DNA of 64,000 nt from Acutalibacteraceae bacterium (GTDB taxonomy: Bacteria; Bacillota; Clostridia; Oscillospirales; Acutalibacteraceae). The position numbers were made by a program, and so were the translations under genes. Of the stretch, positions 18,395-56,300 are shown in pieces (within the stretch, counting starts at the first letter, position 1; each line of letters opens with the position of its first letter). A model generated the notes under the pieces. That model did not search any database. It saw only the letters and a list, made by a program, of their open reading frames with translations, and was not told the DNA's origin. The stretch spans positions 27,610 to 91,609 of the forward strand of contig JAZSDP010000078.1 in assembly GCA_045531265.1 (NCBI GenBank). Direction: 5' to 3'.

Positions 18395-18578
18395 GATACT
18401 AACTAAAAGTGACTCTTTATGCCCTTTTGGGGTTTCGGTATGCCGTAAAACGGTCAGGTCAGGGGCCGGGCAGGCTGATTTTTCAAGGGAAAAAGTGTAT
18501 CACAGTGAATTTCGTTTTTACGGCGAAGAGCCGTTTTATGAAATAAACAGGTTAATTTTTATTAAGGAGGAAATCTTA

Positions 18579-32300: not shown

Positions 32301-35300
32301 CATTGAATCACTTCTTGATTCATTCCTGAACGTTGAAAATATGCTCAACGACCTCATCTCCGGCCTTGTTGACGGCTCAGACCTTGACACCGGTGAGGAT
32401 ATCGTTGTTACAAAGTTCGTTGACTTTGGTGCTCTTGCAGTTTACGGCGGTAAAGCAAATAAAGATGCAATTTCACACACCACAGGTGTTGGCGGCACAT
32501 TCACAGAATTCACAGGCTCACCCGCTCAGACCCTTATTACACTTGTTCGTTCAATCATGACAGATGACCTCATCGATTCCTTCGTCACCATGTTCATGGA
32601 TTACTACGCAACAACAGAGCAGGGCCAGCAGATTACTGACGAAAACCGTGAAGACTGGGCCCGCGTTCGTGACATCGTTCTTGCACTTTCAGTTCGTGCA
32701 AAGACTCCCGCAACATTTGAAAACGGCAACTATAACGGTACCGGTGTTGACCTTATCGTAGGTCTTGTTGTTGACCTCTTCACTGACTATGTTCCCGGTC
32801 AGGGCGTAGAAATGTTCTACCAGAAGATGGCTGATGAAGGCTATAGCGATGCAATCATGGAAAAATACGGTATCCAGCACGTTCCTTATCAGTGGGAAAA
32901 CATCACCAAGGATGAAAATGATGATTTACTCTTCACTCCCGATGATGTTGAAGATACACTCGACAGCTTCGATGCAGTTATCAGAAAAGCTGCTCCCGAT
33001 GTTATCGGAATCCTTACTTCACAGGGCATTCTTGACCTCAGCTCACTCGGTATTGAGCTTGACGGTGAGGCAACAACTCTCTATGGAGTACTTACACAGC
33101 TTGTTGAAGACTTCCTCTTCACAGACGAAATAATGGCAACTGTTGCTAACCTTCTCGCTTCACTTCTCGGTGGCGGTATGGTAGGCGACCTCCTGCCCCT
33201 TATTAAGGATGCAGGTATTGACATTACAGCTGTTTCCATTTACAAGAGAACAAAAACAAACAGCGCACTCCGTGAATTTATGTCATACAATATCACCGGT
33301 GGTGTTGACGCAAACGGTCAGATTACTGTTGACGGTGAAAAGCGTGATATCACATGGGCTGACATTGCTGACGCTCACGGCTACCAGGCTTACGAATATG
33401 ACGAGCACGGCAACGTTGTAATGGACGGTGACGACGCTAAGCTTGCTTATACAAAGAAGCTCTCCGTTGACAAGGACGGCAAGCCCGTTTATGAACTCGA
33501 CGAAGACGGCGAAATCAAGCTTGACGCCCAGGGCAACAAGATTCAGGCCCAGGAAGATGACCTTGACAAGCCCACAATGAAGCTTATTACAAGCATTTAC
33601 GTCCAGGCTAAGAAGGACGGTAAATTCGTATATACCTATAAGGGTAAGGATGCAGAAGGCAACTCCGCTGACCTTGAATATCTCAGCGCATTTGCTAACC
33701 TTGAATCCTTTGCTGTTCAGGTATTTGAAGAAGACGGCACAACACCCAAGAAGGACGAAAACGGCAAAGAGGTATGGACTAAGTATGACCTCAAGCCTGT
33801 TTACACTGACGAAGAAATTCCCGGCGCATGGTCATGGGATTTCGACGATGTTGAATCACGCGGCTATAAGAACCACATCTACGGTAAACTCAGCTACTTT
33901 GTAGACAGCGTATGGGAAATCATCGGCGGTCTCGAGGATATCCTTGAAGCTCTCTTCTTCGGTGCTGATACCAATAAGGCCGTTAAGCTCTTTGACACAC
34001 TTAATATTGAAGGTACCGACGGCTTCGAAGATACACTTCTTCCTCTTCTCCGCGGCTTCGGTCTTGATGCTATCCTTTCCAACCTTAACAATTCTCCCGC
34101 AACAGATGCAGACGGTAATGCACTTGTTGACCCGAAGGGTGACGGTTCCGTTTACACTATGCTCGAAGAACTCAACGACGAGCGTAAGGTAACCTACGGT
34201 GACGAAAATGTAAACGCTATCCCCGCAAACCTTGTTAAGGGTAATGCAGGTATGAGACGTTCACTCGGTACTTGGAGAAATGCAGCAACAAACGAAATCG
34301 AAGCAGAAGCCTTCAAGAACTTTGCAATCGGCAGAGATTGGTTCGCAGAAGAACAGAACGGAACAATCTATTTCGACCAGGCAGCAGGCTATGATATGGC
34401 TACCTTCCTCAAGGTATTCCTCAACTATGTTCTCTACTTCGTTGAAATCCTTGCTTCCTATCCCATCTCAACTCTTATGAGTGCTCTCCCGACTCTCGCA
34501 TACTTCATCGTAGGCGACGGTCTTAACGAAATCGTTTCCAACCTTCTCAGATTCCTCACAGTTCTTACCGACAGACTCGCTCCCATCCTTGCTATTGATG
34601 TTAACGATATCGGTGCAGGTCTTGTTGATATGCTCGGTACTAACGAATGGGGTACATTCCAGGAAATCTTCAAGTTCTATGTAAATGAAGACGGCCAGAA
34701 GGTTTATGACGAGATCACATATGACGAAAACGGCAAGGTTGTAACTGTTCAGAAGCCTGCCGCAGAAAAGAACATCTCACTCACAGAGACTCTTCTTTCC
34801 TTCGTTGCAAACATTAAGATTGACCTTGACAGCGACGGCGTTCAGGAAAGCACAATCACACGCTTTATTAATGCTGAAGCTGAAAAAGAAGCATGGGCAC
34901 TTATCAATGCAAATACAGATGATAAGGGCGTTGTTAATAAGGATAAGCTTGAAGAAGCACGTCAGATGCGTACAGCCGCTGTTACAGCATGGCTCGAATC
35001 TGTTGTTGCTCTCGGTGAACCCTTCAAGGGCGACTATACTGATGCTAACGGCGTTGATCACAATGTTCCCGCTAAGTATCACGGCTATGTAAAGATTGAT
35101 GCTTACAACGGTCAGATCAGTGTTCCCAAGAATGATATGTTTATGTTCATTCTTGACTTCGTATTTGAAAACACAACCCTTCAGGAGGTTCTCGGCGATC
35201 TTCTCGGTTATGATATTACCGATGAAAACGGTACAGATGCAGACCTTCTTGACGAACTTCTCACTAACGTATTCAGAAATCCTGACTATCTTGTTGACCT

Positions 35301-38300
35301 TATCGTTGCTCTGTTCACAACCTACACAGTTGCTCCCAATAAGGACATCCCCTTCATCGATATTGATGAGTATCACTACAACTTCTACGATGAAGACGGT
35401 CAGACAACATACCAGGATATTCTTCCCCAGATTCAGGCAGGCACATATGCAGGCTCTGAAATCTCACGCGTAAAGACAGCTTACGCTATTGACAACCTTG
35501 ATAAGCTTGTTGGTACAGTTCTTAACCTGTTCAAGAAGGACCTTGTTAAGGAAGGCGGTCTCTTTGACGGTATCTTCACCGAAGAAGATGACATCAGCCT
35601 CAGCGTTGCCGTTAACGGTCTTCTTGAAGATCTTCTCTTCACAGACGATATGATTAACGACCTTCTCGGTATGCTCGTTGGTCTTCTTTCAGGTGAAGGC
35701 GTAGGCGACATTATAGGTATCGTAACTGATATCCTTGAAAGTGCTGCAGGTATTGACATTTCAACAGCGGCATTCGCAAATAATGATACTCTTGAATCAA
35801 TCATAATGAAGGACGGCAAGGCTCAGACCTGGTCCGAAATTGCTGAAGCTAATAAGCAGTACGAATATAAGTACGAAACAATTGACGAAGACGGCGAAAC
35901 TGTGCTTAAGGACGGCGAACCCGTATACGGCACATACTTCGACAAGTCTGCTACAGCCTCATCCGCAGTGGTTGACGCTGACGGCGACGGTGACGAAGAC
36001 GACACAGTTACTCTTATCCCTGTTTACAACCAGAAGCAGGCTCAGAATGCTGATAAGGAGTATGAATACTACTACTTCGCATCTGAAGAAGATAAGACAA
36101 ATGATATCAGAACTCCGTACTTTGATAAGGAACAGAACAAGACAGAGTATGTAATTCCTGCAACTGACGATGCTGAAGAGCAGAAGTTCGTACTTACTGC
36201 TGTTATGGTTGACGATACTGACAGCCAGAAGACAGCTGTTAAGTTTGACAAGCAGTGGAACATCGTTCCCGAGCTTGCTGACGATGCAACTGCAGAGCAG
36301 AAGGCAGCAGCTTCCAAGCAGGCACGCGATAACTTTGTAACTGTTCTCTGGGATGTTCTTGAACCTCTTTCACCCGTTCTTGAACTCCTCTTCACCGGCA
36401 GAAACCTTGAAATCTACGGTGAAATCACAATCCGTGGCTTTGACGGATACGAAGGCTTTATCCTTCCTCTCATCAATGCCCTCGCAGCCCCCGTTTATAC
36501 AAAGGCTGACGGTGTAACTCCGTACCTTGACACTAACAAATACTACCCGACTCAGGAAGCTTTTGAACTTGCTGTTTACGGTGCTGATAAGGCTCCCGGC
36601 GGTGAAGATGAAAATGCTGATAATACTCAGGTTCTTCTTCAGTCAATCCTCGATGCACTTCTTGCACTCGTTGATTCACTCTGCGACAGACCTATTTCAA
36701 CTATCGCAACTCTCCTTCCCTACCTTGCAAGATTCCTTGAAAGCAAGGGTATTGATACTATCCTTTCAAACCTTCTTTCACCCATAACTGCAATTACAGA
36801 TATGATCAAGAATGTATACAATCTTGACATTATGGGTCTTATCAAGGGTCTCCTTCAGGGCCTTGCAGCTGACATGAATAAGGATGCTGCAGCTCAGACA
36901 GCAGCAGGCTTCATCGAAGAAAAGATTGACGAAGCAGCCGAAGCTAACGCTAATGCAGGTGTTGCTCTCGCAGCTGAAGAAGACGATATCCTTAATAATG
37001 ACAGCGGTATCGACTACAGCAAGTACACCTTCATGGAAATCATCTGGGATATCCTTGAAGCTGTTCAGATTGACCTCGGTGACGGCAAGAAGCTTGCAAT
37101 CTCCGACCTCATCAACGACCAGTTCTTTGTAAAGCTTGCAGCTTGCGCATGGTATGACGACGAAGCCCTCGGTTATGTTATGATTAAGGGCATTGACTAT
37201 GCTGACGGCGAAGACGAAGACATCAACGACAGTAAGGTTACAAACGAGCAGAGAGACACAGACTACTATGTAGACCGTGAAACAGTTCTTCTCTTCGTAC
37301 TTGATAACCTTCTCTTCCAGGAAAGCGTTCGTGACCTTATCGGCGGTCTCATCGGTGATATGGAATTCACCGACGAAGCTCTTACCGAACTTAAGAACAA
37401 TAAGGACGAATCCAAGGTTCTTGACACAGACTATCTCCTTCCCGTACTCCTTTACGGCGTATTTATGGACGGCGAAGCTCTTGAAAGACTCCTTATCGAC
37501 CTTCTCTCCTGGTACGATGTTGAATATGCTCCCGAAAGAGTTGACAAGACAACTCCGAACTCAACTCTTCCTGAAGTTGACTGGGATGCAACCGGTCTCA
37601 ACGAAGCAGAGCTTGAGAACCTTCCCAAGCAGCTTGATGACCTTGTAGCAGCAGTTCTTCCTCTCCTTCTTGAACTTCTTCCCACCTTCGGTGTTGATCT
37701 CGGTATCGACCTCGGCGGTGCAACAGATATCAAGCACATCGTTGAAAATCTCATCGGCTCACTCTTCACTGATACAGTTGACGAGAAGACCGGCGAAGTT
37801 AAGAACGGCCTTGCAACAACTCTCTTCACACTTCTCGTGAAGCTCTTCGGTGGCAGCAACCTTGATGATATTCTCTCAATGGTTTATGAGCTTACCGGCG
37901 GCGACGAACATGCAATTAACCTTACACTCGCATACTTCAAGGATTCCTCGACTGCAATCGCTAAGTACTTCAATGAGTACAAGGATGCAGAAGGTAAGAC
38001 CAAGGCTATCAATACTTGGGCAGAAGCTTACGAAGCATTCAAGGTTAAGGTAGACTTTGACGCAGAAAAGAACTTCTCATATGCAGAAGAAGATGTAAAC
38101 AAAGAAAACAAGATCTTTGACAAGAATGACGGCGATTATCTCTACGCTGTAGATGATAAGGGCAATATCGTTCACACATATGCACAGGATGCAGAAGGTA
38201 AGGCAATTCCCGCAACTGATAAGGGCACAACAGCAGTTTGTCCTGACTGCGGTGAAACCTTCTATATCACTGCCGGTGACGGTAAGGTACTCGAAGGCGA

Positions 38301-41300
38301 AGATGCAGCTAATGTTGTAGCTTATGCTGACGGTGAATTCGCATACGAATACCAGTGGGATATTAAGCTCACAGGTACAAACAGCTTCGGTGTTAAGGAC
38401 TACACAACAGCTCTTAACCTCCTTGGCGATATCGTAACACCTCTTGTTCCCGTGCTTAAGCTTCTCCTTGTAGAAGACGGTGACCTTGTAATCCTTGACG
38501 GTGTTACAATCTCCGCAGGTGACGGCTATGACCGTTTCGTAATCCCCGTTGCAGAAATGCTCGGTATCGAAATTGAAAACGATAAGTACGCTGTTGCAGA
38601 GTTTACAAACGCTGAATTCGGTGACTTCATCGTTGACGGTATTGTTAAGCTTATTAACAAGATTGTATCCTCACCCATCCAGACAATTATCGATCTCCTT
38701 CCCAACCTTGCATACTTCATTACATCCAACGGTCTTGCTCAGGCTGTTGAGCAGATGCTTGCTCCTCTTCTTACTCTCGTTGACATGGTTAACGACATTT
38801 CAGGCGCAAAGATCACTCTTAAGAACGGCACAGAGCTTGTAGCTCTCGATGTATATGAACTCCTTGTTGGTCTGCTTAAGGACGTTATTGATCTCAAGGG
38901 CGCAAAGACAGCCGGCGAAATCATCACAAATCTCCTTACAGCAGATGGTCTTGAAGACCTCATTATGGGTCTTGTTAAGAACGAAGACGGCACAACTAAG
39001 CTCGGATTCCTTGATGGTCTCTTTGCTGATATCGTTGCTAAGACAGTAGGTATCACAGATGTTGAAACTGCACGTTACTTCGGCTCATATGTTCAGGGCG
39101 GCCACCGTATGGTTAAGGGCGTTTATGCAACAAGAGCAAACACAGTTCTTCAGCTCATCTCTGAACTCATTCTTGCTGAAAACGGTCTCATCTTTGAAAT
39201 TCTTGACCTTGCAGGTCTTGACCTCAACGATCCCGCTAATGCAACTATTAAGACTGTAATCGACGGTCTCACCGGCGACAACAGATATTGCATACTTGAA
39301 GTTCTTCTTAACTACTTCAACCACTATGATGTTGAAGGTACAATCATTGACTATCTCTCATTCGAAGCTAAAGAATTCGCTTATGAGACATATACAACTG
39401 ATTCTACACTTTCCGCACGTAAGGTAAGACGTGCAATCAAGAAGCTTGACCAGGCGGTTCTTGCTCTTGTTCCCGAACTTCTTCCCTTACTTGAAGAAAT
39501 CGAATTCCTTAAGGGCGCACTCGCATCCGTTAAGGATCCCGATAAGGGCTATGAAGGCGTAACCATCCAGAAGGTTGTTGAAGCAATTCTTTCCGACCTT
39601 GCATTCAACGATGAAACAATGACAATGCTCGTTGGCACAATCATCGGTCTTCTCGGTGGCGAAGGTCTCTCAGGCACCCTTGCATCACTTTCACCTGTAC
39701 TTTCAAAGCTTGTTGATGTTAACATCGCTCCCGCAGCAGTTGCAGATAATGCACAGACAGCAGGCGCAACCGCACTTGCACAGCTTATCGGCGAAGCTAT
39801 TGCCGGTACAGAAGCAGCACGCAGCTCAAGCTATGTAGACGATGACGGTCTTACAGTATCAACTGTACGCGAAGCAACATGGGCTGACATCGCAGAATAC
39901 TATGCAGATAATGCATACTTCTACATTGTTGAAAATGTTGGCGAAGAATATGTTCTCAACAATAAGACAGGCGACAAGGTTCCCGTATTCAACACTGAAA
40001 CAAATGAAGACGGCGTTAAGGTTCCCGTATTCGCAGAAGGCGAAGAAGCTCCCGACAATGCTGAAGACCTCTTTGTAAGTGAAGACGGTTACCTTATGAG
40101 AAAGGTTTACACCTACTCAATTGAAAAGCACTTTGACAAGAATGAATATGAAGACGGTAAAGTTATCACTATCGATGGCGAAGAAGTAACTCTTTACACT
40201 CGCGCTATCGCAACAGATAAGGACGGCAACATTATTTGGGCAGACGCTGAAGCTCTTAAGCCCACATTCCAGCGTGTAATGGACGGCGAAAAGTATGGCT
40301 TCAACTGGACATACACTGTAGCTGACGATGAAGCAACAGCAGATGTTGACGAATCCAAGACATACAGCGGCGTTGTATATCAGAATGATGCAACTGACGC
40401 TGACGGTTTTGCAGAAGTTGAAATCGACGGCAAGAAGGTAGAAGTTGCTGTTGAAGAAGCATTTGTAATGTCAGGTACTCAGGTACTCGGTGCAACAGAA
40501 ACCGATTGGGGCTTTGATGATGCAGATACCTTCGAAGAGAAGAAGGACGTATTCCTCGGCGAGCTTTACGGTATCGTTAAGGCTGTTGAACCCGTTGTTG
40601 ACTTCCTCTTCCACGGCGAAGATATCACTATCCAGTCCACAGTTAACGGCAATACTGTTGATGCTATTACCCTCAAGGGCGGCGAAGGCTACAGATACGC
40701 TCTGTATCCGCTTCTTCAGGCTCTTGCAGCTGACCAGATGGGCAACTCCCTTGTAAGCGGTGTTGACTACGGTGCACTCAAGGGCACAGTAGGAACTCTC
40801 GAAGCTATTGTTGACGGTGTGTTCAATGTTGTTGAAAACCTTGCAGCAGGCCCCGTAGAGTACATCCTTACTCTCCTTCCCTCACTTTCATACTTCATCA
40901 AGTCTGACGGTATCAGACTCTTCGTTGAAAACCTTGCTTCACCCGTATTTGCACTTCTTGACGTTGCAGAACCCGCAGTAGGCGCTCTTCTTGACGACCT
41001 TCTCGGCGGTCTCCTCAGTCCTCTTGTTGGCGACTATATGCCCGCAGAGTATGTAAATATGGAAGGCCGTAAGGTAGACGATAACGGTACACCTGACGAC
41101 ACAACTGATGACTTTAAGGTATACACTCTTGACGAAATTCTCCATATCGCAGGTAAGGATGGTACAAACCTTGTAGCTATCCTCAACAACCTTGTTGGCG
41201 GACTTATCGTTAAGACAGAAGAAGGCGAAGAAATTGAACCTATCACAATTCTTCCCGCAAACTTCTTCGCAGACTATGTAGCATACGCAGTAGAAATCGG

Positions 41301-44300
41301 CAGCAGCTTCGGTCAGAAGATGTTCTATGACCTTGAAGTAATCAAAGCAGGCGGCAAGTTCGGCGGTAACGTTGGTGACACAATTGCTATCCCGCAGGCT
41401 GACTACACAGAAGACCTTAAGGAATACTACACAATCGTTGGTGACACCAGATATTCAGTTTCTTCCTGGAAGGTTGACATCGCAGATTCACTTGTATATC
41501 TCCTTCAGTCAGTAGCCTCCGCTGATCTTCTCGGCGTACTTGCAGGTGATGATCACGAAGAAAAGGTTGCTAAGAATGACCTTATCGCTATCATTCTTGA
41601 CAACCTCATCAAGGGTAACAACAACGGTCTTACAATTGCTGAAATCCTTGTATCACTCTTCGAAGGTTACACAGTTAAGTATGTACCTCTTAACGGTATT
41701 TACATTCCCATCGACCATACAGGTATGACCGATGCAGCAGATATTCCCGTATCACTTGATAACGTTATCCTTGAAGCACTTCCCGTAATTCTTCCTCTTC
41801 TTGCAGGCGAGAATGTTGAAGAAGGCAGCCTTATGGATACACTCACCACTGCTCTTGCAGACCTTGGTGAAAACGAAAACGCTATTAAGGCTCTTGTTGA
41901 CGGTCTCATCAATTCCTTCCTTACCGATGACCTCGTTCGCGGCATTGTTGAAATGCTCGTAGGCATCCTCGGTAACGAAACAATAGATATGGTTCTCGGT
42001 CTTGTTAAGATTGGTGACCACAACCTCACTGCTCCCGAATTCAAGGCTCAGATTGATGCACACTTCGCAGGTAAGGCTGACTATGCAGCAGCACTTGCAG
42101 CTATTGATTCAATCATCGGCGAATACGGTTCATGGGCAGAAGTTGCTAAGGCTAACACCAAGTATGCTTACACATACGTAATTAAGGAAGCTACAGCAAC
42201 AGCAGCAGCTGAACTCGGAACATACTATGCAGTATCTGACAAGCTCGGCGGCACATATCAGGAAATCGACGGTAAGGAATATCTCCTCACCAAGAAGGCA
42301 TCCGATGTTAAGAACGATAAGGGCGAAGTTATCGGTTCAGTTCACGAAACTGCCGTTAAGTTCGACGAAGCTCTTACCTTCGGCGTTGACGGTGCAGATG
42401 ACAAGCTCACAGCTCTCATCAATGCATTCACAGTTCTTCTTGAACCTCTTACCGAAGTTCTCCAGCTTGTTCTCCAGGGCAAGACCCTTACACTTCTCTC
42501 AAGCAACGGCAAGTATGTTGCTGACTCATTCGAAGACATCTATGGTGCTGAAACAGGTCAGTCCAACGGCGAACTTCCTGACGACGACCGTGACACAGCA
42601 GACGTAGGCGTAATCATGGGCGACGGCTTTATCGAACTCCGTGGCTCAAAGGGCTACGACGAAGGTCTCCTTGCTCTCGCTGAAGCAATCTTCGGCCAGA
42701 TTAAGGGCACTGAACTTGAAGACAAGATTCCTTCAGGTGCTGAATTCAACGCTTACACCGACATCGAAGATATCCTCGGTGCAGTTGTAAACATCATTAT
42801 GGCACTCGTTGAAGGTCTTGAGAACGGTCCCATCACCTTCCTCGCAGACCACCTTGCAGGACTTCTCTACTTCCTTGCAAGTGATAACGTAAACAACCTT
42901 GTTAATAACGTTCTCGCTCTTGCAAACGGACTTCTTGAAGTTCTTGAACCTCTCACAGGTAAGGACAACATCATTGACCTTCTCGGTATGCTCGGCGTAG
43001 ACCTCAGCATCCTTGAAATCAATAAGCTCCTTGAAATGCTTACAAACCTTATCAGAGCTCCTAAGGACTTTGAAGTAACTAAGGCAGAAGATGGCTCCTA
43101 CACATATGTAAGAGACGAAAAGACTGTTGCAGTTACAACAGAAGAAATCAAGACTAAGGAAGTTGAAAAGGACGGCGCTAAGGTAACTGTTGAATATGTA
43201 ACAGTTGATACAGGTCTTGACCTTACAATTGACCTTGCAATGCTTAAGGACCTTGTTGCAGCTCTTGGTGAATATGCAGTTATTGACTCACTCAGAACAT
43301 CTGCAAACATCGGTCTTGCTACAAACAATGCAGGCGAATATGTAAATAAGGACGGCCAGGTAATTGAAGGTGACGCTATCACAACCGGCAAGCTTACAAC
43401 AGTTGTTGGCTGCAGAGCTCACTTTATTGACGGTCTTCTTACCTTCGCACTTTCCGATAATATCATTGGTAAGCTCCTTGTTAAGGACGAAACCGATCCC
43501 GATAACATCCTCAATGACCTTATTGACGCTCTCACTGCAGAAGATGCAGCAGACGGCCTCATTAAGTTCCTCAACCAGCTTACAAGTAAGTATCTTGTAG
43601 AATATACTGTTCTCGCAGCACTTGACGAAGAGCTTGCACTTACAAAGCTTTACACCTACTATGCTGACAGTGTAAATGCTCCCGAAGGCGCTCATAAGAG
43701 AACAATCAAGAAGACAGATGCTGAAAAGACAATCGACAACCTTAACAATCTTGTAGGTCCTATCCTTGAACTTGTTGGTATGGGTAACCTTGAAGATCTT
43801 GTCGGCGGCCTTGTATTTACCGACGATATGGTTAATATGCTCGTTGGTCTTCTTGCAGGTCTCCTTCCCAGCCTTGAAGGCGGCGATATCGCAAATATCC
43901 TTGATATCGTAGCTAATGTTCTTGGTGAAGAAATTGACCTTTCAGCAGCAACTTATGCTGAAAACGCAGTTCTTGCTCCCTTCTTTGCAGATGTTGAAGC
44001 AAGTGCTGAAGACGGTGTAATTACATGGGCTGATGTTGCAGCACATTACACCAAGTATGTATACACATACACAATTCCTGCTGATCCTGAAGTTGAAGAC
44101 TCCAAGCCTGAAACTGTAACAGTTTATGCTGCAGAAGGCGAAACAGTTTACACAACTGAAGACGGTAAGCAGTATGCTATTACTCCTGTTTACGAACAGA
44201 AGGCAGATAAGGACGGCAACCTTGTTTACACAACAGGCGATGCTGAAATTATCGCAACAAAGGATTACACCATTAAGACAGAAAACGGTGTAACCACAGC

Positions 44301-47300
44301 AACAACTAAGGTAGACGGTGCAGATGTTGTCTACACAGTAACACCTGTTTACACAACAACTCAGGCTACCAAGGCTGTATATGACTTTGCTTGGGGTATG
44401 GACGCTATCGAAGGCGACGATGACGAAAGCAAGGTACTCAAGCAGGCTCACAAGTTTGTTGATATCATCGCTGCATTCCTGCAGCCCGTAGACTTCATCC
44501 TTGAAGTTCTCCTTGCAGGCGGTACAAATACCGGTGATGCAGAAAATGCTAAGTCAATCAGTGCATTTGATGAAATCAATATCATGGGCGGCTCAGGCTA
44601 CAACTATGCGATTATCCCGCTTCTTGAAACCCTCGGCGTACCCAACAGCATGATTCTCACTCAGGCTCAGTACGAAGAAAAGATTAAGACTGAAGGCACT
44701 CTCGCTCCCATCCTCGATATTCTTCTCGAGTATGTGATCGGCGGCCTCAACGCTCCTCTCTCCTTCGTAGCAGACCTTCTTACAAATCTCTTCTATACAG
44801 TAAGCCAGAACGGTCTTACAACAATCGTTTCCAACCTTATTGCTCCCGTATCTGAACTCGTAAGAGCTCTCGAAGATACTCTTCCCGTAGCAATCAAGAT
44901 CGACCTTACTCAGATCTTTGTTGAAGGCGGCGAAATCTTCAAGATTATGCTCGGTGACGATGTTGCAATCAACGGTGCAACAGTTGGTCTCGACCTGAAC
45001 CTTGATAACAATACAATCGAAGATCTCCTCTTCGGTGCAAACGGTGTTCTCAAGAATCTCGCTCCCGACCTTGTTATCAACTTCAACATCCGCGAATTCG
45101 TTCGTGCAGCAGTTGCAGTTGACGAAAACGGCGATATCATCTATGTAGATTCACTTGTTGATACTGATTACGATATCCTCACACCTGAAAACGTTGAATG
45201 GCGTGACCGTATCGTAGTTGACAGAGCAGACGCAGTTATCAACTTCCTTGACAGCATTCTTACAACAGAGACAATAAACAGTCTCCTCACAATGCTCGAG
45301 GTTGACCTTGACGAAATGCTCGGCGAAGATATGTCGTTCCTTGCTGATATCATCAACGATGCTATTGAAGCTCCCTCAACTCTTATCGATACAATAGTTA
45401 AGCTTCTCTCCACAGCTTACACTGTAGAAGACATTATGGTTCTTTATGATGAACTTACAGAAGCTGATTATAACTACGATAATGAAGTAGCTTCAAAGGA
45501 CGATGTAGCTCTTGTTCTTAACAAGCTTGATGCTGTTATCAACAACGCTATCGAGCCTCTCCTCGGTATCCTTTCAGGTATGGACAATATGCCCGCACTT
45601 GTAACAGATATCGCAGCAGCTATCGAAAACGGTGAAGCTGAAGCTACAATCGGCGGCGTTCTCGACTTCGTACTCGGTGATCTTATCTTCACTGATGAAA
45701 TCGTTAACACTGTATTCGGTCTTATTGTTGGTCTTCTTGGCTCAATGGATGCTAAGACATTCGACCTTATCAATAACCTCCTCGGCGAAATTCTCCACAT
45801 CAACCTTGATCCCGTTGAATTTGCACGTTCAATCGTTGCAGCAACAGGCGATACAAAGGTAGCAGACTATATCGCATCCTTCCCCGCAACTGAAGATACT
45901 GTTCTTACATGGGCAGATATCGCAGCTGCTAACAAGAAGCTTGTATACACCTACACAATCAAGGCAACTGAAGAAGGCGCTGAAGATAAGGTTGTAGAAG
46001 TATACTTCGATCTTGACAGAACAAACGAAACCGCTTACACAGCTGAAGACGGTGTAACTTACACCCTCAACAAGAAGATGGTTGAAAAAGACGGCGTTGC
46101 AACAGACGAGCAGGCAACCAAGGTTGTTATGACTCATAACTGGGGCGTTGATGCTGCAGCTGCAGCAGATAAGAAGGATGTATTCCTTGGCGCAATCCTT
46201 GAAATCCTTGCTCCCTTCGGTGCAGTTCTTGATTGGCTCTTCTGCGGTGAAGACATCGTTCTCGTTTACGAAGGTGTTACACTCCACGGCGGTAACGCTT
46301 ATGATAACGTTCTTGTTCCTCTTGTTAAGGCTCTCGGCGTTGAAATCGACACCGATGCCGAGCTTGATGCACAGAACAAGACTCATGCAGTTGACCGTGT
46401 TGAAGCACTCATTAACGGTATCTTCGCACTTGTTGACAAGCTTGCTGACAATCCCATCAACACAATCGTTGAGCTTGTAACAGGTCTCTCCTACTTCATC
46501 GCATCCGGTGGCGTAGCAGAAGCTGTTGAAGGCATTGCAGCTCCCATCTTCGGTCTTGTTTCAACTCTTGAAGCAATTGCTCCCATGTCAACAATCAACG
46601 AAATTATCGCTGAACTTGCTAAGGACGTTAAGCTTCCCGGCGACAAGCCTCTTACAATTGACAACATCATCAACATTGCAGGTGAAAACGGTGAAGGTCT
46701 TGTAGCTCTCATCAACAGTCTTATCGGTAAGATTGAAATTGAAGATGAAGCAGGTAACATCATTAACCTCAACCTCCTTCCCGATGACTTCTTCCTCCAG
46801 GTTGCACAGTACGGTGTAAACATTGAAACAGTTGCAGAAGTAACTGCTGAAATGATTGCAGGCGGCGTTGACTATCAGCCCGACAACAAGTACGTAACCG
46901 AGTGGTCAGTTGATAAGGCAGACGCTATTATGTATGTACTTTCAACTGTATGCTCCGACTCCTTCCTTAAGAGTCTCTGCTCACTTATGAACCAGCCTGA
47001 AGACAGCACCGTTGGCGGTATCCTCCTCGGTCTTGCAGGCAAACAGAACAATGTTGTTGATATTCTTGTAACACTTCTTACTGAATACACAGTAACATAC
47101 ACAGACTTCACACGTGCTCCGATTGAAAAGGAAGAAGTAACTCATACTGCTCCCATGACTGAAGAAAATCTTGAAGCTGCTCTTGCAGTTCTTGACAAGC
47201 TTATTCCTTCAGTAATCGGTCTCGTAGGTCTTGATGCAGACTCACTCCAGAGTCTCCTTGGTGAGCTTCTTGAAGGTCTCGATCTCGGTAATCTCCTTGC

Positions 47301-50300
47301 AGATCTCCTTGTTCCCCTTCTTGCAGGTCTCGACCTCGGTGAAATCCTCGGCTATGTTGAAGAACTTACTAACATCAGCGTTGACCTTTCACCTGAAGCA
47401 TTCACACACAACAAGTTCGGCTCCAAGCTTGCTGAATTCATCGGCAATGCTGAAACATGGGCTGACATTGAAGCTAAGTATCTCAACTACATTTATACTT
47501 ACGAATTAACCGATAAGGACGGCAACGTTGAAATCGGCGAAGACGGTAAGGCTAAGACAGCTGAATACTTCAGCATTAAGTCTGACCTTGACGGTAAGAC
47601 TGTAACCGTTGGCGAAGGCGACGATGCTAAGGAAGTTAAACTTTCCAAGAAGCTTGTTGAAACAACAGTTAAGGCTGAAGACGGTACAGAAAACAAGGTT
47701 AATGTACATGATACCAAGATGAAGTCCGACTTCGATTGGGAACTTGGCCTCACAGGTGTTGACGCATCCTTCGACGGCGTAATCGCTCTTGTATCCGACC
47801 TTCTCTATCCCGTTGACTTCGTACTCGGTCTCCTTCTCACAGGTGACAGAATTGAAGCACTTGAAGAAATCGGTATCACAGGCGGCCGCGGCTACAACTT
47901 CGCAATTATCCCGCTCCTTGAAGCATTTGGCGTAGAAGTAATCACAGAAGCTGAATATGTAGAGCAGGCTAAGACTAACGGTCACCTCAATTACATCCTT
48001 ACAGCTCTCTTCGGTAAGATTGAAGATGAACTTCTCGTATCACCCGTTAAGACTCTTCTTTCAATGCTTGCTAACCTCTTCTACCTTGTTGGCTCCAACG
48101 GAATCAACAATATTGCAGAAAACCTTCTCGGCTTTGCTAACTACCTTCTTGTAAAGGCTGAGCCCGTATTCAAGGTTGGTATCTCAATCGACCTTTCAGA
48201 AATGGGTCTTGTTGGCGGTAAGGTTCTCAAGACAACCTTCGATGCTGACGAAAACGGCAAGCCTATGCCTTATGTATCATCAATGGCAGCCGGTATCCGT
48301 GTAAATGTAAGTGCTGATGCACTCTCCAAGCTTCTCGGTGACCTTATTGCTGACCTCAAGCTTGTTGATATCGACGGCGACGGCGTAAATGATCCTCTCG
48401 GTCTTTCACTTGACCTTGACTTCACAGAGCTTGCAGCTAAGATGGCAGCAACAAATGAAGACGGCACAATCAAGAAGATTGCAACCTCTCAGATAACCAC
48501 TGAAGGTGCTCCTGCAACATGGTTCAATATTGAAGGTGATGTTGAAGATACCTTCACAACACTTATCGATACAATCCTTACAGATGAAAACGCATTCGCA
48601 CTTGCAAATCTCATCGAAAGCCTCCTTAAGGACGTTGACTTCAGCGGTATGGACGGCGTAGATGAAAACGGCGAAGCAAATGACGAAATCAATGTTAAGG
48701 GTATCCTTAACGACGTGCTCTACCAGAAGGACGGCATTAAGAAGGTTCTTGGTGCAGTAGTTCTCCTTCTCAGCGGTCAGTACACAGTTGTTAAGCCCGA
48801 TACAGCTTATAAGTTCCTTGGTATCCTCAGCTACTTCCTTGAAGGCGACGATACAGGCGATAAGCTCAACAATGCTATTGACAGACTCGATGCAATTATC
48901 GCTCGTGAAGTTCCCGAAATTCTCACAATGTTTATTGACGGCGACTCCGCAACCGGTATTCTCAAGTCACTTGTAGATGCTGCAGACGGTGCAACAGGCC
49001 TTGATGATATGCTTGATTCACTTCTCAAGGAACTTGCATTCACACCCGATAACTTTGCAGCTCTTATGGAAATGCTTGTTAAGGCTATTGCAGGCTTCCT
49101 TACTGCAGACCTTACAGGTACTCTCAATGACCTTCTCGGCATTGACCTTGCTCCTGCAGCATTCGCAACTGCAACAGGTAACGCTAAGCTTGTAGCTTAT
49201 GTTGAAAACGCTCTTGATGCAGATAACGAAGCTAAGGACGAACCCGCTGAACTCACTTGGGCAGACGTTTGGGCAGCTAACAGCACAGACGGTAAGGCAA
49301 ACGAATACGATTGGGGCGTAAATGACCAGAGCGGCTTCATCTCAGCAGTTCTCAGTCTCCTTATCCCGCTCAATCCTATTCTTGACTTCATCTTCTGTAA
49401 CGGCGCAATCGAGCTCCTTGACGGTTCAGTAAGACTTCCCGGCGGTGACGCTTATAATAAGGCTCTCATCCCGCTGTTCAAGGCTCTCGGCGTTGACCTT
49501 GCAACTGCAGAAACCACAACAGAAGCTCTTGATGCTCTTGTTGACGGTCTTATCGGTAACACAGGTCTCGTAGGCAAGCTTGCAGACGCTCCCTTCAGAA
49601 CAATTCTTGAACTTGTAGCAGGTCTCAGCTATCTCCTTGCAAACGATAACCTTGAACCCATCATCAGAAACATTGCAGCTCCCGTATTCTCAATCCTTGA
49701 TCTTCTTAAGGATGTAATCACAATGGATCAGATCGACGGTATCCTTGAAGGCTTCATCGGTATGAGCCTCACAGATATCATCGAAATCGGTAACAACGGC
49801 GGTGCTAACCTTGTTGACCTTGTAAACGGTCTTCTCGGCGGTATCGAAGTAAGAGATGAAAACGGAAAGCTCATCGACACTGTAGATGCACTTGACAGTG
49901 ACTTCTTCGTAGAACTCTCCAAGTATGCAATCGACGTAACAGATCCTGAGGGTCTTGTAGATCCCACAAATGTTGGCGAAGATGCAAACGCATGGACAGT
50001 AGACGCAGCAGAAACACTCATGTTCATCCTTGACAATGTTCTTGATGAAACATTCCTTAAGGTGCTTTGCGGTAAGATCGCTCCCGATGCAAGCGAAGAT
50101 GATATGCTCGTTGGCATCCTCACCTCACTTGCAGATAAGGAGATCGACCTTGTTGAAGTAATCCTTATGCTCCTTGAAAACTACACAATCAGATACAACA
50201 GATATCAGCAGACAACTCTCACCGGCGCTGCAGCAGATTACACAGCATTTGCTGATAACGCAGCAAAGGTTGAAGCAGCCCTTCCCAACGCTATCACAGC

Positions 50301-53300
50301 ACTTGATACACTTCTTGTATCAGTTCTCGGTATGCTTGGCACAGGCGATGACCTCGGTGCTCTTATCGATGGTCTTATTGCAGATGCTGATCTCGGTAAC
50401 CTTCTTATGAACCTCCTCGTTCCCGTACTCGCAGGTCTTGATCTCGATACAATCCTCGGTTATGTAAATGACCTTACAAACCTTGAGGTTGATATCGCAC
50501 CTCAGGCATTTGCAGATACTAAGTTCGGCTCCAAGCTCGGCGAATTCATCGGCGAAGCTGAAACATGGGCAGAGCTTGCTGCAGCTGCAGAATGGCAGCA
50601 GTATGTATACACATATGTTGTTAAGAACGAAGACGGTACCGATAAGATCGGTGAAGACGGTAAGGTAGTAACTGCTGAATACATCAGCAAGGACGGCACT
50701 CTTACCGAAGTTAACCTCGGCACTGAGAAAGAGCCTAATGTTGTTGCTCTTACAAAGGTTATGACAAATCTCACTGACCTTGAAGGTAAGAAGGCATACA
50801 CATATGGCGACGAAACTCTCTATCTTGCAGATAAGGAAGTAAAGGTTGCTGATGACAATACAGTAACAACAGTTATCAAGTCCGGCGAAGGCGACGCTGC
50901 TACAGAAGAAACTGTAACAATCGTTCCCGTTATGACTCACAAGACTCAGTTCGTTTCAACCTTCGATTGGAACATCAAGACTCTTGAAGATGCTGTTAAC
51001 TTCGCAGCTGACCTTCTTCTCCCGCTTGACGTTGTATTCAAGGTTCTCCTTGGCGGCAGCGAAATCATCGCTCTTGAAGACGGTGACACAATCAGACGTG
51101 CTGATATTCGCATCAAGGGCGGCTACGGCTACAACTATGCAATTCTCCCGCTTCTTGAAGCTCTCGGAGTAGATGCAATCAGCCAGTCCGAATACGATGC
51201 ACGTATCAACAGCGTATACCACGGCTCATCACTTAAGTACATCCTTGATGCAATCGTAGGCAGAGTTGACGAAATCCTTGCAACTCCCGTTCAGGAAGCT
51301 CTCGGTCTCTTCGCTAACCTCTTCTACTTCATCGGTTCAGAAGGCATCAACACCTTCGCTGCTAACCTCATCGCTCCCGTTCAGACTCTTCTTGAAGAAG
51401 TTTGTGACGTATATCCCATCTGCATTACCATCGACGGTAGCCAGATCGGTGTTGAAGGCGGTAAGATTATTGCAACAAGCTTTGATGCAGACTACGAAGC
51501 AGGTTCACTTGCAGAAGGCCTGAAGATTGACTTCAAGGCAGAGCACATCTCAGCTCTCCTTACAAACCTTCTCTCAGGTATTAAGATTAACGAGAAGCCT
51601 CTCGGCCTTACTCTCAACCTCAACTGGCTTGAGCTTGCAGCAGCAATGGCTAAGAGAGATGCAGAAGGTAAGATCATTTACACTGATTCTGCTATCGAAT
51701 ACGGTTATAAGAACACAACTGTTAACTCAACAGACCTTACAGCTCATAAGAATATTTCCGGTGATGCTGCAGCAACTCTTGTAACCCTTCTCAACACAAT
51801 TCTTTCAAATGAAAACGTTGCAGTTATCAAGAACCTTGTTAAGGATCTTCTTAAGGATGCTAACCTCGATGCAACAATCGAAAATCTCATCGACAACGTT
51901 CTCAGCGACAGAAATGCTATCATTAACCTTGTAGGTACTCTCGTTCTTGTTCTTACAGGCGAGCACGAAGTACGTGTAATGGATATGGTATTCAAGTTCC
52001 TCGGCGTAACTGACTACAATGTTGAAAACGCTGATACAGCAATTGCTTCCTTCGACAGACTTATCGGTAAGGCACTTCCCGTTGTTCTTGATATGTTTGC
52101 CGATACAAGCAAGCCTGAAGCAGAATGGACAATCCTTGAACAGATTGCCGCTTCCGGTGAAACAACACTTAAGGGTATTGCAGATTGGGCTCTCAACGAT
52201 CTTCTCTTCACAGACGATATGATGGCTACAATCACCGATGCACTCGTTGGTGCTCTTGCAGGCTTCCTTACAGAATCTCTTGCAGGTACTCTCGGCGATC
52301 TCCTCGGCGTTGACCTCAACCCCGTAGCCTTTGCACAGGCAACAGGTAACGCAGCTCTCATAGCTTATGTAACTGTTCCCGGCACAGGCACAGACGGTCT
52401 TGTAACATGGGCTGATGTTCTCGCAGCACACAGCACAACAACAACCGTTGACGGTAAGGAAGTAACAGAAATCGACAACGTATTCACAGGCGTTAATAAT
52501 AAGGATGCATTCCTTGATGCACTCTTCAGCCTGCTTACACCGCTCGATCCCGTACTCGGATTCCTCCTTCGCGGTTATGACCTTACAATCGGCGCAGGTC
52601 TCGGCGTAGACGATATCAAGCTCAAGGGTAACGACGGTTACTCCAATGCAATAAGCATTCTCTTCAAGGCTCTCGGCCTTGGCGAAATGGGCGCAACCTG
52701 GGTAGAAGCAACAGACGATATGAACGCTGTTGACGCTCTCAGACATACAATCGACTATGTATTTGCACTTGTTGATTCACTTTGCGCTAAGCCCTTCAAC
52801 ACAATCCTTGTTCTCCTCGGTAACCTCAGCTTCTTCGTAGCAAACGACGGTGTAGAGAAACTTATCAATAATCTCGTATCACCCGTTCTTTCACTCGTAG
52901 ATGCTCTCAGCGGTACAATCTCCAGAGCAGAACTTGATGCACTTCTCGTTTCACTTACTAAGAACGAAATGCTCACACTCAGCGGTATCCTCAATATCGC
53001 AGGTGACAACGGTGAAGCACTTGTAGAACTCCTCAACGGTATTATCCCCGGCTCCAAGGTTTACGAACCCATGAAGGATGCTGAAGGAAATATCCTTGTT
53101 GGCGAATATAAGGAATACACCAAGGAAGCTGTTGAAAATGATAAGAACAACACCTATGATGAAGTAGTGATTAAGGTTCTCGATGCTGACGGCAATCCCA
53201 AGAAGGATGACGAAGGCAACGAAATCACAAGAACTGCTTACTATAAGGTTGTTCACGTAATCAACGCACTTCCCGCAACCTTCTTCGTTGACCTTGCAAA

Positions 53301-56300
53301 GGCAGCAATTAAGGTTGATACACCCACAGGTCTTGTGGATCCCACTGATATCGGTAAGCCCGTTACTAAGTGGCATGTTGAAACCGGTGATACTCTCGTA
53401 TTCATCCTTTCAACCGTTCTTTCACAGGATGTTCTTGACATCCTCTCTAACCTCCTCGGTCTCACAGACGGTACAGTTAAGGATATCCTTAGCGGTCTCG
53501 TAGGTAAGGAAGAAGAGCTTCTTGATGTTCTCGTTTCACTTCTTGCTAAGTATCTTGTTGAATACAAGGCATATACACAGCCTGAACTCGATAAGATTAA
53601 TGTAACAACAGCTGAAACACATGATAACTTCAACGATATCGTTACAAATCTTGATGCTCTTATCCCGACAATTCTCAGCCTTGTAGAAATCGGCGGTAAG
53701 AAGTACGGCAGCCTTAACGAACTTATCAGCGGATTCATCACAGATGACATCGCAGATATGCTTGTAGGTATGATAGTTGAACTTCTCTCAGGTCTTCCCT
53801 CAGAGACAATCGACGAAATCCTCGGATATGTTAAGGAGCTTACAAACCTCAAGACTCTTGATATCAGCCCGAAGGCATTCGCAAATAACGACTTCGGTTC
53901 AAAGGTTAAGGCATTCTTCGAAGATGCTGCTGCAAAGGCAGGCACCACACTTGATAAGCTCACATGGGCTGAAGCTTGGGAAGCAACAAGCACAGTAGCT
54001 GACGATCCCGAAACAACTGATAAGGTTGAACGTAAATTCAACGGCTATGCTTGGGGCATTGAAGGTCTCAACGACCTTGTAGATCTCCTTTGCGACTTCA
54101 TCCAGCCTCTTGATCCTATCCTCCTCGTTCTTCTCGCAGGCGGTCAGGTAAGAGCTGACTTCGACGGTACAACCGTTGGCAGATCTATCAGTGCACTTGA
54201 TGAAATCAACATCATGGGCGGTATGGGTTATAACTACGCAATCATCCCGCTTCTTGAACTCCTCGGCGTTGACGCAATGAGTCAGGCAGCATATGATTCA
54301 GCAGTTAGCAACAACCACGGCAGTGCTCTCTACCCGATTCTTAACCAGCTTATCAGTACAGTTGAAAATGACATTCTCAAGTCACCCATCAACTGGCTTG
54401 CTAAGATTCTTGCAAATCTCACATATGTAATCGGCAATGATGATATCGGCACAATCGTTGATAATCTCCTTGCTCCCGTTAACCAGCTCATCGCTAAGGT
54501 TGACAAGGTATTCCCGATCGCTATCGACATCAACATAGGTGATATCGGTAACGAAACAGAATACAACAAGGTTGTAGACACCTACCTCGGCGTTGCACAT
54601 CCCGGTGTTGAGGCCGGTATCCACATCAGAGTTGAAGGCAAGGCTCTTGCAGATATGCTTACAGGTCTTCTTGAAGGCATTGAAATTGAAGGCAAGCCTC
54701 TTGGCATCAAGATTGATCTTGATTGGCTCAAGCTTGCAGCAATGGCAGGTGCTGATGCTGACAGCAATAAGAAGGTTGACTTCGAAACAACCAACTTCTC
54801 AACCAAGTATGATATTTACAACGGTGGTGCTTATAAGACCATCAAGGGTGACGCAGCTGACACCTTCGTAACTATCCTCAAGCTCGCACTCACTAAGGAA
54901 AATGTTGAAGCTATCCTTGGCGCACTCAATGTTGAACTTAGTCCCGAAATTAAGGATATTATCGACCAGATCGTTGAAGATCCCGCTAAGATTGTTGATA
55001 TCATTGCAAATCTCCTCGGCGGCAAGCTCGCTTACCAGCCGATCCAGAACAGACCTATTTCCGTAACAGGTGTTAACTACAACAGTTACTTCACCTTCAC
55101 AGAACAGAATGCAGATATCATTGCTAATAACCTTGATACTCTTCTTGTTCAGATTCTTGACCTTGCAGGCCTTGGCTCAATCAGACAGCTTCTCGGTCAG
55201 TTCATTAACAACGGAATGGTTAACCAGCTCCTTGACTTACTCGTAGGTCTCCTCGCAGGCGACTCCGTAGGACCTATCCTTAACACAATTGCAGGCATTG
55301 ACCTCGGCATTGAATTGCCGCTTACACTTCCCGCATTTGCAGCTAAGATCTCTGAACTCGCTAAGACAAGAGATTATCTTAAGGGTGCAGCAGCTCACCT
55401 TAATAAGGGTGTTGCAGCAGGCGGCGAAGATGCAACTTGGGCAAATGTAGGCTCCTTCCAGGATGCTAACGTTGATTGGAAGGTTAAGGACGGCGACCTC
55501 TACGGCTTCGTACAGGCTGTTGCAGGTATCCTTACACCGCTTAACGGTCTTCTTGAACTTCTCCTTATCGGCGAAGGCAAGTACCTTGACGTTCTTGGTG
55601 TTGTTAAGATCGGCGGCGGCAACGGTTACGACTACGGTATCATCCCGCTTCTTGAAGCATTCGGTCTCAAGTCAAGTGAAGTTAAGAATATCACAGAATA
55701 TAAGCAGGCTGTTGCTAAGGACGAAACTCAGCTTCTCGGCTATATCCTTAACAGAATCGCTTACTTCGCTGACGGTCTTCTTGACTCACCTGTAAATGAC
55801 CTTCTCACTATCCTCCCGAACCTTGCATATTACTTCTCCAACGAAGGTCTCCTTCTTACAGTGAAGAATCTGCTTGCTCCTGTTTACACCCTTGTAGACA
55901 CAATCACAAAGGTTCTCGGTGTTGATCTTGAAAGCTTCCTCAAGCTTGAAAAGCTTCTCAGCAATATCGATCTTGGTATCGTTGTATTCAACAACAAGTA
56001 TGATTTCAAGATTCCTGAAATTGATTGGCTCAAGCTTGCTGCACAGGGCGGCGATAAGGCTCAGGAAGTTTCAACTTCACGTTCAATCGCTGCAAACTCC
56101 TACACTAAGGAAATGCGTGCGGATGAATACCATGCATATACTCAGGCTAACCCGAATGCTCCTCATAAGAGCACTCAGAAGAACATCGTAGCAGATAAGG
56201 GCGATACACTCACACTTATCTTCACATGGCTGCTTGAAATGTTCGGCACTCAGCATAACAGAGACGCTCTCGTTAACTGGATTGTTGATGTATTTGAACT

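What the first reader, a model, noticed from the sequence alone, without database searches (positions are those of the whole stretch)
43800..55000. Alternating A/B two-module super-repeat (~3.2 kb period) in the C-terminal half
From about 43.8 kb onward the modules alternate between two subtypes. Type A cores lie near 44587, 47881, 51118 and 54217. They carry GG[SRYM]GYN[YF]AI[IL]PLLE, then a TNLFY/ANLFY segment and xIDLSxxGxxGGK. They are preceded by LGYVxELTN[IL]xVDxxPxAFxxxKFGSKLxEFIGxAETWA. Type B cores lie near 46288, 49441 and 52627, with an earlier one near 40678. They carry GG[ND]AY[DN]..L[IV]PL[VF]KALGV, then NIAG[ED]NGE.LV.L[IL]N and W.V[DE]..[DE]..[MV][YF][IV]L, and end in LL..Y[TL]V.Y. 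The A-to-A and B-to-B spacings are about 3.1-3.3 kb. This implies the protein grew by duplicating a two-module unit, with the two module types possibly acting as a structural heterodimer-like pair.
Basis: seen in the sequence. Interest (0 to 1): 0.6.

Follow-up and report, generated by a model that had tools for sequence, protein, structure and literature searches.

The report
Two-module super-repeat in giant protein
The last third of a 10,118-residue secreted protein from a cattle-gut Clostridia bacterium alternates between two old subtypes of a ~500-residue module that matches no described family, and related species gain or lose these modules mostly as A+B pairs; this is a real but evolutionarily ordinary way for a giant repeat protein to grow.

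Summary
Observation confirmed. Window 43606-55038 encodes modules A1 B1 A2 B2 A3 B3 A4, plus an A-like terminal module X. They lie in one ORF (26341-56697, 10,118 aa, 1.1 MDa, pI 4.2) made of 15 homologous modules. Self-BLAST peaks at an offset of 1,030-1,080 aa (35-42% identity, E about 1e-50). Trees give an A clade and a B clade (B joins module 6), with (A2,A3) and (B2,B3) as matching sister pairs. AU tests reject neighbouring A+B as a clade (p=7e-45). Sixty-two homologous genes were typed. Those outside the exception lineage follow 1-7 + [A B]n + A + X: n=0 (1 gene), n=2 (7), n=3 (46, window included) and n=5 (1). One divergent lineage (8 genes) has five A modules in a row. Growth by a two-module unit is therefore supported. 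An obligate A:B structural pair is not, because A occurs without B and AF2 models both junction types equally well (pTM 0.66 and 0.63). The duplications are ancient (third-codon positions near saturation), so this is not a recombination-prone DNA repeat. The module has no Pfam, NCBIfam, PDB or Foldseek match. This scan noted the same super-repeat earlier in orthologues from other genomes (e1-1971829, e1-4327522). The protein's function remains inferred: a long acidic surface fibre.

The parts
26341..56697 (+). Single giant ORF of 10,118 aa (1.10 MDa, pI 4.16, net charge about -949). It has an N-terminal signal peptide, a unique N-terminal region of about 800 aa, 15 homologous modules and a C-terminal amphipathic tail.
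39340..41682 (+). Module 6. It is the B-like 'earlier' module (core at 40678) and the sister lineage of the B clade.
   Evidence: 94/95
41683..43605 (+). Module 7, the last non-alternating module. It is sister to module 5.
43606..45429 (+). Module A1 (core at 44587). It is basal in the A clade and lacks the LGYV leader.
45430..47100 (+). Module B1 (core at 46288). It is basal in the B clade.
47101..48792 (+). Module A2 (core at 47881, LGYV leader at 47347).
48793..50196 (+). Module B2 (core at 49441). It is the shortest module, with only 62 aa between TWADV and the core.
50197..51978 (+). Module A3 (core at 51118, LGYV leader at 50455). It is sister to A2.
51979..53565 (+). Module B3 (core at about 52627). 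It is sister to B2.
53566..55038 (+). Module A4 (core at 54217, LGYV leader at 53821). It has no B partner and is present in every homologue typed.
55039..56694 (+). Terminal module X (A-like core at 55615). It carries a hydrophobic segment at aa 10014-10032 and the FFQKI amphipathic tail.

Best explanation
The region is the C-terminal third of one secreted, very acidic 1.1-MDa protein from an uncultured Acutalibacteraceae bacterium (Clostridia) of cattle and other animal guts. The protein is a chain of 15 homologous alpha/beta modules of 470-850 aa that belong to an undescribed family. Its last eight modules read A1 B1 A2 B2 A3 B3 A4 X. A and B are two old paralogous module lineages; B shares ancestry with module 6, and A probably shares ancestry with X. 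The array grew, and in relatives shrank, by tandem duplication or deletion of a block of about 1,050 aa holding one A and one B. The likely cause is mutational. Unequal recombination can only pair like with like, and like modules sit two apart, so each event adds or removes a pair. There is no need for A and B to form an obligate structural pair. Shown here: the modules, the two clades, the co-duplication, the pairwise copy-number series and the age of the duplications. Inferred: the recombination mechanism, and the function. I take the protein to be a long, semi-rigid extracellular fibre whose length depends on module number. It is probably held at the cell surface and works with the co-located 2,462-aa Listeria-Bacteroides-repeat protein.
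For: Period and homology. A and B clades with matching branching. AU tests. Homologue architectures follow 1-7+[AB]n+A+X with n=0, 2, 3 and 5. In G009 the extra A copies and extra B copies diverged in parallel: adjacent copies are 59-60% identical for A and 65% for B, and next-but-one copies 51% and 56%. Age: A2/A3 are 44.5% identical in aa and 59% in nt, and third positions at identical residues match 61% of the time, against 50-56% for A versus B. Secretion and acidity. AF2 gives pLDDT 81 and pTM 0.63-0.66 for both two-module windows, with ordered junctions (pLDDT about 81-86), which fits a continuous rod. The upstream large repeat protein is conserved next to the gene in at least 9 homologous loci. 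Contigs from a bovine metatranscriptome library cover the gene.
Against: Only about four independent copy-number events underlie the pairwise series, because genes in related species share their architecture by descent. One lineage (G013 type, 8 genes) expanded A modules singly. A2 and A3 do not resolve as orthologues between the two main species groups, although B2 and B3 do, and trees of sub-regions disagree. So either gene conversion or independent events blur the simple history. No experiment bears on location or function. RNA-library contigs do not prove transcription.
Confidence: 0.8

Rival explanations
1. A and B form an obligate structural two-module link (heterodimer-like), and selection for intact links, not recombination mechanics, forces copy number to change in pairs.
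For: The alternation is strictly kept in 54 of 62 genes typed, and counts differ by whole pairs. The small paralogue P0026 also has exactly two modules. pTM of 0.66 for A2-B2 suggests a fixed mutual orientation.
Against: B2-A3 is modelled just as confidently (pTM 0.63, junction pLDDT 81-85). The G013-type lineage keeps five A modules in a row in all 8 genes. P0149 is complete and has an A but no B. A4 never has a B partner. Modules 1-7 do not alternate.
Confidence: 0.15
2. The alternation arose from single-module duplications followed by convergence or gene conversion, not from duplication of a two-module block.
For: A2/A3 orthology is blurred between species groups, and sub-region trees differ, which suggests some conversion. 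Single-module A expansion did happen in one lineage.
Against: Neighbouring A+B clades are rejected (p=2e-5 and 7e-45). (A2,A3) and (B2,B3) are both strongly supported sisters. The extra A and B copies in G009 diverge in parallel.
Confidence: 0.03
3. The super-repeat is an assembly artefact, that is, a collapsed or chimeric repeat in a metagenome-assembled genome.
For: The source is a MAG estimated 79% complete.
Against: The copies are only 33-45% identical in protein and 50-59% in DNA, far too different to mislead an assembler. An independent contig from another sample is collinear over A1 to B2. The same order is seen in dozens of other species' genomes.
Confidence: 0.01

Closest known systems
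Embp / Ebh of staphylococci (1-MDa extracellular-matrix-binding proteins; PMC7587433)
   Same: Both are megadalton secreted proteins of Firmicutes made almost wholly of tandem modules. In Embp the repeating unit itself combines two sub-modules (FG repeats of FIVAR + GA), and the units form a rigid elongated rod. The total size, about 10,000 aa, is similar.
   Different: Embp modules are small triple-helix bundles of about 125-170 aa with Pfam models (FIVAR, GA). Here the modules are mixed alpha/beta, 470-850 aa, and have no Pfam, NCBIfam or PDB match. There are 15 modules rather than 50. No YSIRK signal or fibronectin link is known. Membership was tested and not met.
Titin A-band and nebulin super-repeats (own knowledge; PMC10665226 for titin)
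   Same: A higher-order period made of several different module types was amplified as a block, so modules one super-repeat apart are more alike than neighbours.
   Different: These are eukaryotic, intracellular proteins of Ig/Fn3 or nebulin modules, and their super-repeats match the periodicity of a partner filament. No partner lattice is known here. The likeness is analogy only.
SasG / Aap G5-E alternating repeats (own knowledge)
   Same: Two alternating domain types form a long, stiff surface fibre on a Gram-positive cell, and repeat number varies in whole G5+E units.
   Different: G5 and E are beta-rich segments of about 50-80 aa that depend on each other to fold. Here each module is about ten times larger, and A can occur without B.
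Giant proteins of Omnitrophota and gut Clostridia surveyed by West-Roberts et al. (bioRxiv 10.1101/2023.11.21.568195)
   Same: These are also proteins of more than 10,000 aa from uncultured bacteria, including mammalian-gut Clostridia, that are largely unannotated and repeat-built.
   Different: Those proteins have many transmembrane segments and SecA-DEAD domains, or known repeats (RCC1, Listeria-Bacteroides, YG, dockerin). This one has only terminal hydrophobic segments and none of those domains.

Membership tests
Embp/Ebh-type giant adhesins | Tandem FIVAR and GA (FG) modules recognisable by Pfam | tested here: not met
   No Pfam family reached its cut-off anywhere in the 10,118 aa. The best hits had E of 0.006-0.07 and scored below their cut-offs.
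Embp/Ebh-type giant adhesins | Small triple-helix-bundle fold of the repeat | tested here: not met
   The AF2 models show mixed alpha/beta modules of about 500 aa. Foldseek against the PDB found nothing with E<0.07 or TM>0.12.
Embp/Ebh-type giant adhesins | Binding to host matrix (fibronectin) | not testable with these tools
   This needs binding assays.
SasG/Aap G5-E fibres | G5 domains alternating with E spacers | tested here: not met
   There is no G5 hit in Pfam, and the modules are about ten times larger.
Omnitrophota-type giant proteins | Numerous transmembrane regions and a divergent SecA DEAD domain | tested here: not met
   The only strongly hydrophobic 19-aa windows are at aa 10-28 and 10014-10032, plus three weak internal ones. 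No SecA hit was found.
Unnamed ~500-aa module family of Clostridia (this family) | Module with the TW[AS][DE] motif, a G-x-G-Y...P-L core hairpin and helix, a P..T...LLPNL.YF helix and the LL..Y.V.Y end motif | tested here: met
   The module HMM tiles aa 818-10107 as 15 full-length matches. The profile finds 694 cluster representatives among 1.84 billion proteins, and the 150 listed are 880-7,700 aa long. No Pfam domain was found in 7 members.
Super-repeat made by block duplication (the kind, not a protein family) | Modules one period apart are closer than neighbours, the two module types have congruent trees, and copy number varies by whole periods | tested here: met
   The exception is the G013-type lineage.

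The most novel reading that the evidence does not exclude
The modules are a new protein fold, and A+B is a true structural link of a rigid, megadalton, length-quantised rod. Species would tune the rod's reach in steps of one link (n=0, 2, 3, 5) to present the co-encoded Listeria-Bacteroides-repeat protein, or its own tip, at set distances from the cell. That would make it a bacterial molecular ruler analogous to titin or nebulin.
Probability: 0.1. Interest if true: 0.6.

Novelty: new variant of a known kind. Interest (0 to 1): 0.4.

Why it matters
Block duplication of mixed repeat units is a known route to giant proteins (titin, nebulin, Embp, SasG), so the evolutionary mechanism adds little. 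The building block is the interesting part. It is a ~500-residue alpha/beta module that AlphaFold2 models confidently, yet it has no Pfam, NCBIfam, PDB or Foldseek counterpart. It defines several hundred large proteins of gut Clostridia, among them a gene of about 10,000 aa conserved in most well-assembled genomes of a cattle-gut genus (40 of 47 high-quality genomes). The clean series n=0, 2, 3, 5 offers natural length variants for testing what such a fibre does. The conserved pairing with a large repeat protein gives a handle on function.

Tried and rejected
1. Whole-protein BLAST self-hits were culled. Overlapping chunks solved this.
2. Pfam on the giant protein, on the 876-aa and 3,300-aa paralogues and on 7 family members found nothing. 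NCBIfam also found nothing.
3. A PDB sequence-profile search gave only a chance hit at E=0.49.
4. Foldseek of both AF2 models against the PDB, and of one against BFVD, found nothing with E<0.07.
5. The ESM Atlas gave only 'hypothetical protein' clusters of Bacillota.
6. I tried to type more distant family members (P0011 to P0165) as A or B. The scores did not discriminate, so the A/B subtypes are specific to this gene lineage.
7. I tested whether the single A of P0149 is an A1/A4 chimera, which would mark an unequal crossover. It is A4-like throughout, so it is no such marker.
8. Sub-region trees meant to resolve A2/A3 orthology between species groups gave conflicting, weakly supported topologies.
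9. The literature searches found no description of this family.
10. Model coordinates and PAE are not exposed by the tools, so A->B and B->A interfaces could not be measured.
Full report
WHAT IS THERE. The finding lies inside one open reading frame, window 26341-56697 (+), of 10,118 aa. The protein starts with a Sec-type signal peptide and ends in a basic amphipathic tail. It weighs 1.10 MDa, has a pI of 4.16 and carries 1,644 D+E against 695 K+R. Its only strongly hydrophobic 19-residue windows are at aa 10-28 and 10014-10032. No Pfam or NCBIfam model matches it. The flanking genes are housekeeping: a glgB-glgC-glgD-glgA cluster lies further upstream, and an aldolase, two EEP phosphoesterases, gltX and glnS lie downstream. 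Immediately upstream is a 2,462-aa secreted protein. Its homologues sit next to the giant gene in at least nine other genomes. A near-identical locus comes from an Acutalibacteraceae MAG, and the sequence recurs in bovine, wildlife and other animal gut metagenomes.

THE OBSERVATION. After a unique N-terminal region of 800 aa, the protein consists of 15 homologous modules. Each has a helical N-part ending in TW[AS][DE], a length-variable beta-rich insert, and a helix followed by a hairpin with the G-x-G-Y core. Then come helices with P..T...LLPNL.YF and NL.AP motifs, a mixed region, and a closing LL..Y.V.Y motif. A module HMM tiles aa 818-10107 in 15 full-length matches. The last eight modules are:
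- A1, 43606-45429
- B1, 45430-47100
- A2, 47101-48792
- B2, 48793-50196
- A3, 50197-51978
- B3, 51979-53565
- A4, 53566-55038
- X, 55039-56694

Chunked self-BLAST gives its best off-diagonal hits at offsets of 1,030-1,080 aa (35-42% identity, E 1e-45 to 1e-53). Hits at one-module offsets are much weaker. In the multiple alignment, identity is 30-42% within a type and 20-26% between types.

The LGYV...AETWA leader precedes A2-A4 but not A1. NIAG[ED]NGE is exact only in B1 and B3. The LL..Y.V.Y ending is common to most modules. Module X carries a fifth A-like core at 55615.

THE PROPOSED TESTS.
(a) Module tree. IQ-TREE on the 15 modules recovers A1-A4 as a clade (92/89) and M06+B1-B3 as a clade (94/95). 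Inside them the order is (A1,(A4,(A2,A3))) and (M06,(B1,(B2,B3))), and both inner pairs are starred. A tree of 213 modules from 14 genes gives A 98, B 89 and B+module 6 98. It also joins 3 with 4 (97) and 5 with 7 (74), and joins X with A weakly (62). AU tests reject A2+B2 (p=7e-45) and A1+B1 (p=2e-5) as clades. They also reject the pairings that a B-A phase would predict, (A3,A4) at p=0.012 and (B1,B2) at p=0.027. The youngest event in this gene therefore copied an [A B] block, giving [A2 B2][A3 B3].

(b) Orthologues. All 18 same-genus genomes first sampled have the gene family, and none of 12 genomes from other families of the order does. Across 117 genomes of the genus, 73 have the terminal module, including 40 of 47 high-quality genomes.

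The 62 genes fall into five architectures, counting the window's own gene:

| Architecture | Modules | Genes |
|---|---|---|
| 1-7 A B A B A B A X | 15 | 46 |
| 1-7 A B A B A X | 13 | 7 |
| 1-7 A B, then A2 [B2 A3]x3 B3, then A4 X (G009) | 19 | 1 |
| 1-7 A X (P0149, complete; its A is A4-like) | 9 | 1 |
| 1-7 A A A A A B A B (7/B-like) A X (G013 type) | 18 | 8 |

In the main lineage, then, the count is 9+2n with n=0, 2, 3 or 5. In G009 the extra A and B copies diverged in parallel (A 59-60% and 51%; B 65% and 56%). The G013-type lineage shows that single-module steps also occur. Related species share architectures by descent, so only about four independent pairwise events underlie the series.

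AGE AND MECHANISM. A2 and A3 are 44.5% identical in protein and 59% in DNA. At identical residues the third codon position matches 61% of the time, against 50-56% for A versus B. The copies are therefore ancient, and today's DNA is not a recombination-prone repeat. An independent 24-kb contig is collinear over A1 to B2 at about 91% identity, which rules out misassembly. The simplest account of pairwise steps is unequal recombination between same-type modules at a time when they were still similar; this is inference. One complication remains. B2 and B3 are orthologous across the two main species groups, but their A2 and A3 modules cluster within each group, and sub-region trees disagree. This points to gene conversion or repeated events in A.

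STRUCTURE AND THE 'HETERODIMER' IDEA. AlphaFold2 was run with 40-41 orthologous and paralogous pairs as the alignment. It models A2-B2 with pLDDT 81.3 and pTM 0.66, and B2-A3 with pLDDT 80.8 and pTM 0.63. Both junctions are confidently ordered, with pLDDT about 81-86. A and B share one architecture. B2 differs mainly in lacking the large beta insert after TWADV. Neither junction type stands out. A occurs without B in P0149, in the A runs of the G013 type, and at A4. I therefore find no support for an obligate A:B pair, although interfaces could not be measured because coordinates are not exposed.

WHAT IT IS. The module is an undescribed family:
- The PDB sequence profile found nothing.
- Foldseek found nothing with E<0.07 or TM>0.12 against the PDB, and nothing with E<0.4 against BFVD.
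- The ESM Atlas returned only 'hypothetical protein' clusters of Bacillota.
- A profile search of 1.84 billion representatives found 694 proteins. The 150 listed are 880-7,700 aa long, most with several modules.
- Seven members scanned carry no Pfam domain.

The genome also holds an 876-aa two-module paralogue with a C-terminal membrane helix next to an ABC-FtsX fusion, and a paralogue of about 3,300 aa. My best reading of function is inferred, not shown. I take the protein to be a long, acidic, semi-rigid extracellular fibre of a gut Clostridia genus. Its length would be set by module number, and it probably acts together with the adjacent large repeat protein. Contigs from a bovine metatranscriptome library cover much of the region laid, which is compatible with expression but does not prove it.

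COMPARISON AND VERDICT. It works like the super-repeats of titin and nebulin, and like the composite repeats of Embp/Ebh and SasG/Aap. It is a member of none of these families, because their defining domains were tested and are absent. Earlier notes of this scan reported the same A/B super-repeat in orthologues from other genomes (e1-4327522, e1-1971829), and the follow-up on one of them reached a similar verdict. Here the tree congruence and the copy-number series were tested directly. They support the two-module growth model more firmly, but not the structural-pair idea. The phenomenon is real and tidy but evolutionarily ordinary. The unexplained module family is the more interesting part.

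Noticed in passing
L061:2763-8132 (G000 contig C82): An 876-aa paralogue has a signal peptide, two short copies of the same module and a C-terminal membrane helix. Four bases downstream lies a 911-aa ABC-ATPase/FtsX-permease fusion (MacB-like). The paralogue is conserved at 44-93% identity in over 100 metagenome clusters, all unannotated.
   Followed up: partly
L062:8098-18000 (G000 contig C17): A third family member of about 3,300+ aa (open at the locus end) has no Pfam domain. It lies about 2.9 kb downstream of a YfhO-family membrane protein gene.
   Followed up: no
window 32800-43605 (modules 3-7): There are older duplication layers: modules 3 and 4 are sisters (97), 5 and 7 are sisters (74), and 6 is sister to the whole B clade (98). 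An earlier block duplication of the type [5 6] -> [7 B] may therefore precede the A/B array.
   Followed up: partly
window 18495-25883: Homologues of the upstream 2,462-aa protein sit directly next to the giant gene in at least nine other genomes of the genus (24-39% identity), which suggests a two-gene functional unit.
   Followed up: partly
G004 contigs C108 and C21 (L011-L015): One MAG (contamination about 5%) carries two full-length copies of the giant gene (10,010 and 10,186 aa). The C21 copy is syntenic with the window (aldolase and 195-aa protein downstream). The C108 copy is the closer relative of the window's gene. This could be a true duplication or two strains binned together.
   Followed up: no
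window 56380-56697 and aa 10014-10032: Besides the conserved amphipathic LNWFQRLIKKIKEFFQKIF tail, found in 13 of the 14 full-length genes (the G013 tail is only similar in kind), module X contains a moderately hydrophobic stretch (IIVSALFAALGMAIGLDAA) that could add to membrane association.
   Followed up: no
G006 module 6 (aa 4652-5779 of that protein): Module 6 of this orthologue is 1,128 aa, about 350 aa longer than in other genes. This implies a large lineage-specific insert in the variable region.
   Followed up: no
window 43606-56697, run X6: Contigs of 2.3-2.7 kb from a bovine metatranscriptome library match B2, B3-A4 and X at about 92% identity. This fits expression of a related strain's gene in vivo, but DNA carry-over is not excluded.
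   Followed up: partly
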